A stretch of 64,000 bases of DNA from a virus (lineage: Duplodnaviria > Heunggongvirae > Uroviricota > Caudoviricetes), in the IMG/VR virus record IMGVR_UViG_3300049830_000314. One strand, written 5' to 3'. Both the position numbers and the translations under genes were made by a program. Shown one piece after another: positions 48,462 to 49,855 of this stretch (the stretch's first letter is position 1; each line of letters opens with the position of its first letter). The notes below the pieces were generated by a model that saw nothing but the letters and a program-made list of their open reading frames with translations, was not told where the DNA came from and did not search any database.

Positions 48462-48834
48462 CGCGCTTCCAAATAAGAGTCCAATCGCCAGTTAGCCAAT
48501 AATCATTTTCACCTTCGAAACTCTTAGAGCCGTCAATTTTTCCTTGCCATTCATAGACACCTAGTTCTGTTGGTGCATCATCGCAATATGCTTCAAAGAA
48601 TTCATCGTCATCCAGACCATCTCGAAGCCATTCAATACCCTCAGAGTGCGCTTCAAGAATGACAGCATTACCATCATCTTTAATTGCAACTAGCAAGTAC
48701 GGGTTGCGAGTATCCTTAAACTCTTCAAACGACTCATGTTCGTTTGAAGATGTAGCTAAAGTTACTCGTTGTGTCATGCTTGTCATTTCAACCCTCGTAA
48801 TCGTCTTTAAATGCGCATGGATTAACACTTCCAC
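48454..48834 (-). CDS. hypothetical protein
   Basis: 126-aa ORF. Confidence 0.4.
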   Translation of the reverse strand: MEVLIHAHLKTITRVEMTSMTQRVTLATSSNEHESFEEFKDTRNPYLLVAIKDDGNAVILEAHSEGIEWLRDGLDDDEFFEAYCDDAPTELGVYEWQGKIDGSKSFEGENDYWLTGDWTLIWKRDA

Positions 48835-49855
48835 TCACCGGAAGTAATTGCCTCAAGTCAACCGTTTCTCCAACCTGATAAAGAGTTTTTAACGCCTCGG
48901 CTGGGCACCCGCTTGCCTTTAAAAGCGACAGCTCTATGTTTTCAGTTAAAACTCCCGTCGTTGCGTCACTAAGTTCTTTCTCCGCCTCTTCAAGCTCTCT
49001 AGCTATCTCATCTGTGACAAAATTCGGAATGAGCGGCAACATGTTTCGCAGATACTGGCGATTTTCTGTGAAAATAAGTGGAGCTTCGGCTTCCCATTTT
49101 GTGCGAGTTACCATTTGCTCTTTGTAACAAGGGCTATAAGCACAAGCTTCTTCCTTACCGCAATCTGACTTTCGACAAATACCAACAGCTTCTTCGACGC
49201 TCTTTCTAACAATACATCGTCCGTTGCGGAAATCAAGGGGAAAATCTTCCCACTCCACGCCTGCATCAAGCATCATTTGCTTCATATCTCTTACACTCTT
49301 GCCATGAAGAGATTTATGCGAGAACATTGATTGAGCAGCCATTGAAACAGCATTACGTCTTGCATCTTGCTGTCTCCAAATGAAGACATTTTCAACTTCA
49401 TAAGGGTCAGCAATCAAGAAGATTCGACTATCGAACTGCGCCATCTTTCCTTCTGCAAGAAATTCTGGATGAGCTAAATACATCAAACGGTTGAATTCTG
49501 CTGTTGCAAGAGAAGCTGAGATTGAAACAATCTTTTGAACATTGCCATCAAACCAAGCTTGCGTCTCAACTCTATCAAAATCTGTCACGAGAATGGAGAT
49601 TTCATCTGACTGCACATATGCAAATTTAGCGCCTGTAATCTTGTCACACAAGAACTGCGCTGTTTGATTCATAGCGTCCATCAATTGCGTGTCAAATGGG
49701 CGTTCAAAGCCCTTGGTGTATGTATGGAATGCGCGGCCGTCGAGACGAATTAGATAATATCCTCTTCGTGGTAAATATGTTTGAGAACGAATTTCATAAT
49801 TCTCTTTCATTCTTGTGGAAAAGGCATCATACTTCATATTCTGAGTGTACCTCAA
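48788..49855 (-). CDS. Thg1-like protein (tRNA-His guanylyltransferase / tRNA 3'-5' polymerase family) with a C-terminal extension
   Basis: YLIRLDGRAFHTYTKGFERPFD, AYVQSDEISILV, FDSRIFLIADPYEVENVFIWRQQDARRNA match the Thg1/TLP motifs (xRLDGRxFH, SDExS, FDxR, WRQxD). Confidence 0.8.
   Translation of the reverse strand: MRYTQNMKYDAFSTRMKENYEIRSQTYLPRRGYYLIRLDGRAFHTYTKGFERPFDTQLMDAMNQTAQFLCDKITGAKFAYVQSDEISILVTDFDRVETQAWFDGNVQKIVSISASLATAEFNRLMYLAHPEFLAEGKMAQFDSRIFLIADPYEVENVFIWRQQDARRNAVSMAAQSMFSHKSLHGKSVRDMKQMMLDAGVEWEDFPLDFRNGRCIVRKSVEEAVGICRKSDCGKEEACAYSPCYKEQMVTRTKWEAEAPLIFTENRQYLRNMLPLIPNFVTDEIARELEEAEKELSDATTGVLTENIELSLLKASGCPAEALKTLYQVGETVDLRQLLPVSGSVNPCAFKDDYEG

What the first reader, a model, noticed from the sequence alone, without database searches (positions are those of the whole stretch)
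48788..49855. Thg1-like 3'-5' nucleotidyltransferase in a phage, near a His-like tRNA with encoded G-1
All four Thg1 signature blocks are present. Bacterial-type Thg1-like proteins repair 5'-truncated tRNAs rather than adding G-1. The His-like tRNA at 53305-53389 already encodes G-1, so the enzyme is more likely a 5'-end repair activity, for example against host nucleases that trim tRNA 5' ends. I have not seen a Thg1-like gene reported in a bacteriophage. The 120-aa C-terminal extension with paired cysteines has no obvious homolog.
Basis: partly seen in the sequence, partly recalled or inferred. Interest (0 to 1): 0.6.

Follow-up and report, generated by a model that had tools for sequence, protein, structure and literature searches.

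The report
Phage Thg1-like enzyme beside tRNA-His genes
This is a genuine bacterial-type Thg1-like reverse (3'-5') RNA polymerase, a kind of gene already annotated in many phages. Here it sits downstream of phage tRNA-His genes, one of which lacks the usual extra 5' G, so it probably finishes that tRNA rather than only repairing damage.

Summary
The ORF is real: 48788-49855, minus strand, with the likely start at the ATG at 49837. It is a confident Thg1-like protein (TLP): Pfam PF04446 scores 101.7 bits, the best structural match is the Bacillus thuringiensis TLP (TM-score 0.94), and all catalytic residues are present.

The claim that this gene type has not been reported in phages is wrong. 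There are 164 GenBank phage records, PHROG 4717, at least 356 IMG/VR contigs, and papers from 2010, 2013 and 2021.

The "120-aa extension" is two separate things. One is a clade-specific four-cysteine insertion at the tip of the β-hairpin that, in solved TLP-tRNA complexes, binds the tRNA elbow. The other is a 78-aa tail shared with only one relative.

All six genomes of this TLP clade carry at least one tRNA-His gene without an encoded G-1, and four of those have C73, the ideal TLP template. The TLP always lies downstream on the same strand, 49 nt to 3.4 kb away, with no phage-promoter motif in between.

The most likely role is adding the -1 nucleotide to phage tRNA-His. General 5' repair is the main rival.

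Side finding: conserved mini-ORFs with runs of cognate codons (HHH, YYYY, LLLGLLLL) precede the tRNA-His, tRNA-Tyr and tRNA-Leu clusters.

The parts
48788..49837 (-). Thg1-like protein (TLP) gene, 349 aa from the ATG at 49837. The mechanical ORF starts at the TTG at 49855 (355 aa). Residue numbers in this report use the 355-aa numbering.
   Evidence: Relatives start at the equivalent of M7, and a GAGG lies about 12 nt upstream of the ATG.
49412..49813 (-). Palm/catalytic domain matched by Pfam PF04446 (residues 15-148). It contains E21, R37, D39, K48, S83, D84, E85, K108 and R144.
   Evidence: 101.7 bits. map BtTLP E12, R28, D30, S74, D75, E76 and R131 onto these residues. They are invariant or nearly invariant in the alignments.
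49103..49198 (-). β-hairpin (residues 220-251), equivalent to MaTLP R198-R215. In MaTLP that hairpin binds the tRNA elbow and limits how far the 5' end is extended.
   Evidence: maps MaTLP G190 to G212 and R215/R216 to R251. One search covers the hairpin's function (Kimura 2016). predicts strands 213-223 and 248-257.
49127..49177 (-). Four-cysteine insertion C227-x4-C232-x5-C238-x4-C243 at the hairpin tip, a candidate zinc site.
   Evidence: It is present in 10 of the 120 best homologs, all at least 64% identical to the query, and all four Cys are invariant there. It is also present in the L087 and L088 TLPs. Model confidence here is low, pLDDT 54-75. Metal binding was not tested.
48791..49024 (-). 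C-terminal tail (residues 278-355). It is acidic and predicted to be helical or disordered.
   Evidence: It is shared only with P0001/L001, fused at the same position. An exhaustive HMMER search found no convincing homolog. pLDDT is below 65 beyond residue 300.
53305..53389 (-). tRNA-His(GUG) #1. G-1 (53389) pairs with C73 and CCA is encoded. It has an unusual long variable arm (84 nt plus G-1).
   Evidence: 47 bits; the fold shows an 8-bp acceptor stem and a variable-arm hairpin.
53225..53298 (-). tRNA-His(GUG) #2. It has T at -1, U1-A72, U2-G71, an A73 discriminator and encoded CCA, so there is no encoded G-1.
   Evidence: (54.6 bits). The ortholog in L001 (8615-8689) shows compensatory stem changes.
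53429..53488 (-). Conserved mini-ORF MEDHHHNTKLNMHVGAAHV* (five His codons, three of them consecutive) upstream of the tRNA-His genes. It is a candidate His-sensing leader peptide.
   Evidence: It is conserved in L001, L002, L005 and L088. Its function is inferred, not shown.
53401..53449 (-). Leader hairpin GTTGGTG...CCACCAAC, which looks like a decayed copy of the 'UU-start' tRNA-His. Its 5' arm overlaps the 3' end of the mini-ORF.
   Evidence: In L005 an intact tRNA-His occupies this position.
53530..53558 (-). Promoter-like TTGATTTTCCTCAAAATCCAGGATATAAT. It is the nearest upstream copy of the phage's CCTCAAAA promoter motif for both the tRNA-His genes and the TLP.
   Evidence: a second exact copy lies upstream of the tRNA-Tyr cluster, with 0 expected by chance. 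(17 copies against about 4 expected, and none between 53543 and 46380).

Best explanation
The gene encodes an active bacterial-type Thg1-like protein.

Mechanism, taken from solved and assayed homologs: the enzyme is a homotetrameric reverse polymerase. It activates a tRNA 5'-monophosphate with ATP or GTP. It then adds a nucleotide that is base-paired to the 3' strand of the acceptor stem (position 72 or 73), using two Mg2+ ions held by D39 and D84.

Most likely role in this phage lineage (inferred): it supplies the extra 5' nucleotide (position -1) to phage-encoded tRNA-His species whose genes lack G-1, and it restores G-1 if it is lost from the C73-type tRNA-His. Four of the six clade genomes have a G-1-less gene with C73, for which the reaction would be an efficient templated G-1 addition. 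In the window itself the G-1-less tRNA has A73, so the enzyme would add either U-1 (templated) or G-1 (non-templated).

The four-cysteine insertion sits at the tip of the elbow-binding hairpin that sets where extension stops, so it probably tunes substrate choice. Repair of other 5'-truncated tRNAs is likely also possible.

Shown here: family membership, fold, an intact active site, the position of the hairpin, and the gene arrangement. Inferred: the substrates and the in-vivo role.
For: Identity:
- Pfam, PHROG and PDB sequence hits.
- The fold matches BtTLP with TM-score 0.94 and rmsd 1.9 A.
- The catalytic and nucleotide-binding residues are conserved.
- It is TLP-type: ARRNAVSM stands where eukaryotic Thg1 has HINNLYN.

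Link to tRNA-His:
- All six clade genomes have at least one tRNA(GUG) gene without an encoded G-1. These are window #2 and L001 #1 (A73), L002/L003 4715-4785 and L088 6381-6451 (C73), and L005 #3 and L087 106-180 (C73, with a C1xA72 mismatch).
- The TLP is always downstream on the same strand, from 49 nt with no intervening gene (L087) to 3.4 kb (window).
- No CCTCAAAA promoter motif lies between the tRNA-His promoter and the TLP.
- There is a parallel arrangement elsewhere in the window: the tRNA-Glu cluster is followed directly by a GluRS catalytic-core gene.

Biochemical plausibility:
- BtTLP adds G-1 opposite C73 with kcat/KM 5500 M-1 s-1, and adds G or U opposite A73 at 108 and about 230 M-1 s-1. 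It still rescues yeast lacking Thg1.
- MaTLP has a second, anticodon-dependent binding mode for tRNA-His.
- DdiTLP2 adds G-1 opposite C73 in mitochondria.
Against: - In the window itself the G-1-less tRNA-His has A73, a roughly 50-fold poorer BtTLP substrate than C73.
- Five unrelated ORFs, three of which look membrane-bound or secreted, separate the tRNAs from the TLP here. A terminator-like hairpin at 52204-52180 lies between them.
- Across phages in general, TLPs are not linked to tRNA-His. Only 7 of 80 IMG/VR loci and 1 of 80 metagenome loci have a tRNA-His within 10 kb.
- At least 23 TLP-bearing phage records come from Caulobacter, Brevundimonas, Sinorhizobium or Agrobacterium. Caulobacterales and Rhizobiales are orders reported to lack G-1 in tRNA-His, and the HisRS tested (C. 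crescentus) does not need it.
- In CcrColossus the TLP lies near a CCA-adding enzyme with no tRNA gene within 20 kb.
- The synteny could reflect shared ancestry of six related genomes rather than function.
- I found no report of any phage TLP being assayed.
Confidence: 0.5

Rival explanations
1. The TLP is a general tRNA 5'-end repair or quality-control enzyme with no particular tie to tRNA-His. It would restore missing 5' nucleotides on any phage or host tRNA, as one part of a wider tRNA-maintenance gene set.
For: - BtTLP prefers 5'-truncated tRNAs 5- to 160-fold over -1 addition and acts on non-His tRNAs.
- MaTLP binds the acceptor stem and elbow, not the anticodon.
- The window also encodes an RNA ligase, a SpoU-type RNA methyltransferase and synthetase-like genes.
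- Most phage TLPs have no tRNA-His nearby, and some infect genera from orders reported to lack G-1.
- CcrColossus pairs its TLP with a CCA-adding enzyme.
Against: - It does not explain why every genome of this clade keeps a G-1-less tRNA-His upstream of the TLP, directly adjacent in L087.
- No process that generates 5'-truncated tRNAs in bacteria is known (discussion).
Confidence: 0.32
2. One reading: the TLP is a counter-defence enzyme that repairs tRNAs whose 5' ends have been trimmed by a host anti-phage nuclease.
For: - The jumbo-phage review groups phage Thg1 with RNA-repair and conflict functions.
- An RNA ligase is present in the window.
- The phage carries many redundant tRNAs, which is consistent with pressure from tRNA-targeting defences.
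Against: - The anti-phage tRNases listed in the paper I read cut anticodon loops or stems, D-loops, the 3' strand of the acceptor stem, or CCA tails. None is reported there to trim 5' ends.
- A TLP cannot repair 3'-strand damage, because it uses that strand as its template.
Confidence: 0.08
3. The TLP edits phage tRNAs that are encoded with 5' mismatches, as in amoebozoan mitochondria: the mismatched 5' nucleotides are removed and then resynthesised using the 3' strand as template.
For: A conserved C1xA72 mismatch occurs in a tRNA-His next to the TLP in L005 and L087, while paralogs have U1-A72.
Against: - None of the well-formed, CCA-encoding tRNAs in the window has a mismatch at positions 1-3.
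- Only one tRNA type in two relatives shows the mismatch.
- No 5'-trimming nuclease partner was identified.
Confidence: 0.05

Closest known systems
Bacillus thuringiensis Thg1-like protein, BtTLP (PDB 4KGK/4KGM)
   Same: It is the best sequence match (E = 4.6e-55) and the best structural match (TM-score 0.94). The catalytic carboxylates and nucleotide-binding residues are the same, and both lack the HINNLYN motif.
   Different: BtTLP has a hairpin about 18 residues shorter, without cysteines, and no C-terminal tail. It is a chromosomal gene with no defined natural substrate.
Phage-encoded TLPs (PHROG 4717), for example Bacillus phage Bc431v3 gp143, Caulobacter phage CcrColossus gp300 and Pseudomonas phage 201phi2-1 'putative Thg1'
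   Same: They belong to the same family and occur in large tRNA-rich phages, annotated as tRNA-His guanylyltransferase.
   Different: They are at most about 49% identical over residues 1-278. None has the four-cysteine insertion or the tail. Most are not next to tRNA-His genes.
Methanosarcina acetivorans TLP (PDB 5AXK-5AXN)
   Same: It shares the fold and a β-hairpin with a conserved Arg. That hairpin binds the tRNA elbow and limits extension, and the enzyme has two binding modes, one for repair and one for tRNA-His -1 addition.
   Different: Its hairpin is 18 aa against 32 aa here. Of the residues deduced to contact the anticodon (F174, N179, R188), only R188 is conserved here as R210. This mapping was read by eye from the alignment.
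Dictyostelium DdiTLP2 and archaeal TLPs (G-1 addition opposite C73)
   Same: They perform the reaction proposed here: post-transcriptional, templated G-1 addition to a tRNA-His that has C73.
   Different: They are cellular or organellar enzymes. No sequence comparison with them was made here.
Eukaryotic Thg1 (yeast, human, Candida; PDB 3OTB, 3WBZ)
   Same: Same superfamily and chemistry. They act on an A73 tRNA-His with no encoded G-1, as the window's tRNA-His #2 would require.
   Different: They are only distantly related (E about 1e-7 to 1e-12). The HINNLYN motif is absent here.

Membership tests
Thg1/TLP superfamily (Pfam PF04446) | Profile match above the curated gathering score | tested here: met
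   101.7 bits against a cutoff of 29.2, residues 15-148 covering profile positions 3-129 of 130.
Thg1/TLP superfamily (Pfam PF04446) | Three active-site carboxylates, plus the activation and nucleotidyl-transfer residues | tested here: met
   D39, D84 and E85 correspond to BtTLP D30, D75 and E76. E21, R37, K48, S83, K108, R144 and N168 are conserved.
Thg1/TLP superfamily (Pfam PF04446) | Thg1 fold (polymerase-like palm plus C-terminal domain) | tested here: met
   (mean pLDDT 84, core above 90); the 32 matches with E <= 0.001 are all Thg1/TLP chains, and the best has TM-score 0.94.
Thg1/TLP superfamily (Pfam PF04446) | 3'-5' nucleotidyl transfer activity | not testable with these tools
   This needs an enzyme assay.
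Bacterial/archaeal TLP subgroup, as opposed to eukaryotic Thg1 | Absence of the eukaryotic HINNLYN motif | tested here: met
   In the alignment to Candida Thg1, the query has WRQQDARRNA where Thg1 has WRQVDCHINN.
Bacterial/archaeal TLP subgroup, as opposed to eukaryotic Thg1 | Elbow-binding β-hairpin with a conserved Arg on the returning strand | tested here: met
   In one search, MaTLP R215/R216 aligns with R251, which is invariant in A1 and nearly invariant in A2. predicts strands 213-223 and 248-257.
Bacterial/archaeal TLP subgroup, as opposed to eukaryotic Thg1 | Kinetic preference for templated addition and for 5'-truncated tRNAs | not testable with these tools
   Known for BtTLP and MaTLP only.
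Pfam Thg1C (PF14413) | Profile match | tested here: not met
   One search found no hit at E <= 1, although some homologs carry a precomputed PF14413 hit. The region still aligns with the BtTLP C-terminal domain. It is interrupted by the four-cysteine insertion.
Canonical bacterial tRNA-His (G-1:C73 encoded) | G at -1 paired with C73, and a GUG anticodon | tested here: met
   Met for tRNA-His #1, although its long variable arm is atypical. Not met for tRNA-His #2, which has T at -1 and A73.
Alphaproteobacterial tRNA-His lacking G-1 | A73 together with G1-U72 and C3-G70. U72 is the key determinant. | tested here: not met
   tRNA-His #2 has A73 but U1-A72 and G3-C70. The criteria come from Yuan 2011.
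Leader-peptide transcription attenuators (hisL, leuL type), for the upstream mini-ORFs | A short ORF with a run of cognate codons, followed by alternative terminator and antiterminator structures | tested here: inconclusive
   Cognate runs are present and conserved for His, Tyr and Leu. The Leu leader has a strong terminator and a candidate antiterminator. The His leader has no T-run terminator. The alternative-fold model works for the window but not clearly for the relatives.

The most novel reading that the evidence does not exclude
The TLP is the finishing enzyme of a self-contained, histidine-sensing phage tRNA-His supply unit. The unit would consist of a promoter, a His-codon leader peptide, tRNA-His genes (one without G-1), and then the TLP that adds the missing -1 nucleotide.

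If correct, this would be the first natural bacterial or phage substrate assigned to a bacterial-type TLP. Together with the Tyr and Leu leaders, it would also be the first case of leader-peptide (ribosome-stalling) control of tRNA genes.
Probability: 0.25. Interest if true: 0.8.

Novelty: new variant of a known kind. Interest (0 to 1): 0.45.

Why it matters
The in-vivo role of bacterial-type TLPs has been open since 2010. Their hosts encode G-1, and no source of 5'-truncated tRNAs is known. This phage clade offers candidate natural substrates next to the enzyme gene: tRNA-His genes that keep C73 but lack G-1, or that have A73. That makes the question directly testable with a few transcripts and one recombinant protein.

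The four-cysteine insertion sits in the hairpin that measures the acceptor stem. It is a natural variant for studying how TLPs decide where to stop.

The gene type itself is already well known in phages, so the finding as originally stated is not new.

Tried and rejected
1. **tRNA-His proximity as a general property of phage TLPs.** Rejected: only 7 of 80 IMG/VR loci and 1 of 80 metagenome loci have one within 10 kb.
2. **Mitochondrial-style 5' editing as a general role.** Rejected: no mismatches at positions 1-3 in the well-formed tRNAs, except one tRNA-His type in L005 and L087.
3. **The tail as a known domain.** Pfam, PHROG and NCBIfam found nothing. An exhaustive HMMER search found only a fragment of the protein itself, plus matches of 5-13 bits per repeat to Ig-like repeat proteins, which I judge not to be homology.
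4. **The tail as a fused neighbouring gene.** Rejected: it is never a separate ORF in the relatives.
5. **Hairpin length as the unusual feature.** Rejected: the G212-to-W254 spacer ranges from 9 to 64 residues across the family. Only the conserved cysteines are distinctive.
6. **Long-variable-arm tRNA-His co-occurring with the four-cysteine hairpin.** Rejected: L014, L079 and L081 have short, cysteine-free hairpins.
7. **A tRNA-Leu plus LeuRS module.** Rejected: the class I synthetase fragment is ValRS-like.
8. **tRNA-His #2 as the alphaproteobacterial type lacking G-1.** Rejected: it has A72, not U72.
9. **Identifying the phage or its host.** No megablast hit and only distant protein hits, so the host remains unknown.
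10. **Promoter and terminator consensus scan around the gene.** Hit counts were no higher than in shuffled sequence.
11. **A riboswitch-like model in which the His leader hairpin controls tRNA folding.** It works for the window but gives mixed results for L001, L002 and L088.
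Full report
**1. The observation**

The window has an ORF at 48788-49855 on the minus strand (355 codons, TTG start).
- It hits Pfam Thg1 (PF04446) at E = 3.7e-29, 101.7 bits against a cutoff of 29.2, over residues 15-148.
- It hits PHROG 4717 'tRNA-His guanylyltransferase' at 3e-80 over residues 10-267.
- Among solved structures its best sequence match is the Bacillus thuringiensis Thg1-like protein (BtTLP, 4KGK) at E = 4.6e-55. Candida, human and yeast Thg1 and the Methanosarcina TLP follow at E = 1e-7 to 1e-12.
- An AlphaFold model built from a 59-sequence alignment has mean pLDDT 84, with the core above 90. 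Its best Foldseek matches are BtTLP chains (TM-score 0.94 on the target, rmsd 1.9 A), and the 32 matches with E <= 0.001 are all Thg1/TLP chains.
- BtTLP residues E12, R28, D30, S74, D75, E76 and R131 correspond to E21, R37, D39, S83, D84, E85 and R144 here. All are invariant or nearly invariant in the alignments.
- Where eukaryotic Thg1 has HINNLYN, this protein has ARRNAVSM. It is therefore a TLP, not a Thg1.
- The likely start is the ATG at 49837. All close relatives begin at the equivalent MK.D.F, and a GAGG lies about 12 nt upstream.

**2. Not new in phages**

- tblastn finds the gene in 164 GenBank phage records, mostly annotated as tRNA-His guanylyltransferase. The largest groups are Bacillus 46, Prevotella (Lak phages) 15, Caulobacter 13, Mycobacterium 11, Brevundimonas 7 and Erwinia 7.
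- A scan with two peptide patterns found 356 IMG/VR contigs that encode a relative.
- The large protein database returned at least 6,415 homologs.
- The abstract of the 2013 Bc431v3 genome paper highlights the gene. A reviewer exchange in Anantharaman et al. 2010 indicates a caudovirus was discussed there, and that paper's organism list includes Pseudomonas phage 201phi2-1. The 2021 jumbo-phage review lists phage Thg1 under RNA repair.
- I found no biochemical study of any phage TLP, and the 2019 TLP review does not mention phages or viruses.

**3. The 'extension'**

The alignment with close relatives and with ordinary TLPs of about 260 aa shows that the TLP domain continues to about residue 277. 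R251, W254, F262 and P274 are conserved, and the family profile aligns with BtTLP out to residue 237 of 245.

*The four-cysteine insertion.*
- The cysteines (C227-x4-C232-x5-C238-x4-C243) lie in an insertion between predicted strands 213-223 and 248-257.
- Profile alignment maps MaTLP G190 to G212 and MaTLP R215/R216 to R251. Residues 220-251 therefore correspond to the MaTLP β-hairpin R198-R215.
- Kimura et al. 2016 showed that this hairpin binds the tRNA elbow (phosphates of U55 and G57), is needed for repair activity, and stops extension by measuring acceptor-stem length.
- The hairpin is hypervariable in the family. The G212-to-W254 spacer ranges from 9 to 64 residues and is 41 here.
- The four cysteines occur only in the 10 closest of the 120 best homologs, where all four are invariant. 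They are also present in the L087 and L088 TLPs.
- A zinc site is the natural guess for a cytoplasmic protein, but this was not tested, and model confidence there is low (pLDDT 54-75).

*The tail.*
- The true tail (residues 278-355) is shared only with P0001/L001, and is variable or absent in other clade members.
- It has no convincing homolog in an exhaustive HMMER search of 1.84 billion representative proteins.

**4. The tRNA-His genes**

It also has a long, class-II-like variable arm.
It has T at -1, U1-A72, U2-G71, A73 and encoded CCA. It meets neither the bacterial identity rule (G-1:C73) nor the alphaproteobacterial rule for tRNA-His without G-1 (A73 with G1-U72 and C3-G70).
- I collected five related loci. 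Rfam found two further tRNA(GUG) genes that ARAGORN had missed.
- All six genomes of the four-cysteine TLP clade carry at least one tRNA-His gene without an encoded G-1:

| Genome | G-1-less tRNA-His gene | Position -1 | N73 | Other features |
|---|---|---|---|---|
| window | #2 (53225-53298) | T | A | U1-A72 |
| L001 | #1 (8615-8689) | C | A | U1-A72 |
| L002/L003 | 4715-4785 | T | C | U1-A72 |
| L088 | 6381-6451 | T | C | U1-A72 |
| L005 | #3 (9181-9256) | T | C | C1xA72 mismatch |
| L087 | 106-180 | T | C | C1xA72 mismatch |

- Each genome also has a gene that encodes G-1:C73.
- Stems covary between orthologs, so these are maintained tRNAs.
- The TLP is always downstream on the same strand. 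The distance is 49 nt with no gene between in L087, 745 nt in L005, 1.2 to 2.1 kb in L001, L002 and L088, and 3.4 kb in the window.

**5. Transcription context**

- The phage's promoters carry a CCTCAAAA element. There are 17 copies against about 4 expected, and 16 are on the coding strand.
- One copy precedes the tRNA-His genes (53530-53558), and an exact duplicate lies upstream of the tRNA-Tyr cluster. The next copy downstream is at 46380, so the TLP lies in the predicted tRNA-His unit.
- A terminator-like hairpin at 52204-52180, with a poor T-tail, lies in between. The consensus scans are not above chance.
- A parallel case: the tRNA-Glu cluster is followed directly by a GluRS catalytic-core gene.

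**6. Weighing the roles**

[quoted passage not shown] BtTLP adds G-1 opposite C73 as efficiently as yeast Thg1 (5500 M-1 s-1). It also adds G or U opposite A73, though weakly (108 and about 230 M-1 s-1), and it still rescues yeast lacking Thg1. MaTLP has a dedicated tRNA-His binding mode.

*For general repair.*
- BtTLP prefers truncated tRNAs 5- to 160-fold.
- Most phage TLP loci have no tRNA-His within 10 kb.
- TLPs occur in at least 23 phage records from Caulobacter, Brevundimonas, Sinorhizobium and Agrobacterium. Caulobacterales and Rhizobiales are orders reported to lack G-1, and C. crescentus HisRS does not need it.
- In CcrColossus the TLP sits 6 kb from a CCA-adding enzyme, with no tRNA within 20 kb.
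- The window also has an RNA ligase and a SpoU-type methyltransferase.

The known ones cut anticodon loops or stems, D-loops, the 3' strand of the acceptor stem, or CCA tails.

I put the tRNA-His role at about 0.5, general repair at about 0.3, and the rest on minor alternatives. The two main roles are not mutually exclusive.

**7. Side finding that bears on the context**

- Upstream of the tRNA-His genes, all five genomes with sequence there share a mini-ORF. In the window it reads MEDHHHNTKLNMHVGAAHV* (53488-53429). It runs into a hairpin that looks like a decayed tRNA-His, and in L005 an intact tRNA-His sits at that position.
- The tRNA-Tyr cluster is preceded by MKSYYYYTSGVILSNSSF* (ATG at 45929), which is conserved in four relatives.
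- The tRNA-Leu cluster is preceded by a mini-ORF with LLLGLLLL that uses all six Leu codons. An 18-bp terminator follows it, and a candidate antiterminator overlaps the 3' end of the ORF.
- On this strand the whole window has only 2 Tyr runs of three or more and 8 such His runs. The chance of one falling in the 200 nt upstream of its cluster is 0.006 for Tyr, 0.025 for His and 0.19 for Leu.
- The Phe and Glu leaders are weak, and Pro has none.
- I found no paper describing leader-peptide control of tRNA genes. The mechanism is unproven: the His leader has no T-run terminator, and a folding-switch model works for the window but not clearly for the relatives.

**8. Verdict**

The gene is a real, probably active, bacterial-type TLP. 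That kind of gene is already well known in phages, so the finding as stated is not novel.

What is new is a clade-specific variant with a four-cysteine insertion in the elbow-binding hairpin and a variable tail. Its conserved placement downstream of tRNA-His genes that lack an encoded G-1 offers a concrete, testable natural substrate for a bacterial-type TLP.

Noticed in passing
window 53429-53488 (His), 45873-45929 (Tyr), 16962-17060 (Leu), all on the minus strand; also L001 13973, L002 8914, L005 13348, L088 12425: Conserved mini-ORFs with runs of the cognate amino acid lie between a shared phage promoter and the same-amino-acid tRNA clusters: HHH, YYYY, and LLLGLLLL using all six Leu codons. 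The Leu and Phe leaders end in strong terminators. They look like amino-acid-operon leader-peptide attenuators placed in front of tRNA genes. I found no description of this in the literature searched.
   Followed up: partly
window 53305-53388; L001 8694-8783; L014 4070-4155; L079 3740-3828; L081 4011-4095: tRNA-His genes with a long, class-II-like variable arm, plus G at -1 and C73, recur near TLP genes on several viral contigs. The variable-arm hairpins differ in sequence between genomes. Canonical tRNA-His has a short variable loop. This is unexplained, and it does not correlate with the four-cysteine hairpin.
   Followed up: partly
L005 9181-9256 and L087 106-180: A tRNA-His with a conserved C1xA72 mismatch at the first acceptor pair, C73 and T at -1 lies immediately upstream of the TLP in L087. 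The rest of the stem covaries between the two genomes.
   Followed up: partly
window 34450-34916 (-): A GOLLD RNA (Rfam RF02032, 154 bits) has an embedded tRNA-like gene with a UCA anticodon at 34774-34848. ARAGORN calls it tRNA-SeC, and it could be an opal suppressor.
   Followed up: no
window 15347-15538 (-): A group I intron (Rfam RF00028, 55 bits) lies downstream of the tRNA-Leu cluster, between short unannotated ORFs.
   Followed up: no
window 12049-13386, 19958-20866, 10237-10896 (all minus strand): Truncated translation-factor genes: a 445-aa ValRS-like protein (about half the normal length), a 302-aa GluRS catalytic core without an anticodon-binding domain that abuts the tRNA-Glu cluster, and a 219-aa protein resembling the C-terminal half of RF1.
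   Followed up: partly
window 20839-21342 (-): All four confidently called tRNA-Glu genes have a G1-U72 wobble first pair and A73. From my own knowledge, this is unlike the usual bacterial tRNA-Glu (G1-C72, G73).
   Followed up: no
window 27761-28480 (-), 36189-36707 (+): An RNA ligase (PF09414) and a SpoU-family RNA 2'-O-methyltransferase are further tRNA or RNA maintenance genes in the same window.
   Followed up: no
window, 16 minus-strand sites including 7030, 17115, 21494, 45982, 53543: CCTCAAAA is strongly over-represented (17 copies against about 4 expected). In the five tRNA-cluster leaders inspected it sits just upstream of sigma-70-like -35 and -10 hexamers. It is probably this phage's promoter UP-like element.
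   Followed up: partly
window 57721-58106 (-): ARAGORN's 'tmRNA' call spans two tRNA-Pro genes and has no Rfam tmRNA support, so it is probably a false positive.
   Followed up: partly
window 42950-43666 and 43951-44601 (-); also L001 and L002: A ZIP zinc transporter and a BtpA-family gene are conserved near the TLP region in the relatives. A phage-encoded zinc importer is curious given the four-cysteine TLP insertion and other Cys-rich ORFs nearby.
   Followed up: no
window 49856-50284 and 48454-48834 (-): The small ORFs flanking the TLP are conserved neighbours with no family hits. The upstream 142-aa ORF is present in L002 to L004, and the downstream 126-aa ORF is present in L001 and L005.
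   Followed up: partly
window 58863-62579 (-); also L001 and L005: A conserved cluster encodes a guanylate kinase, a weak Ser/Thr-kinase-like protein (637 aa) and a PP2C phosphatase.
   Followed up: no
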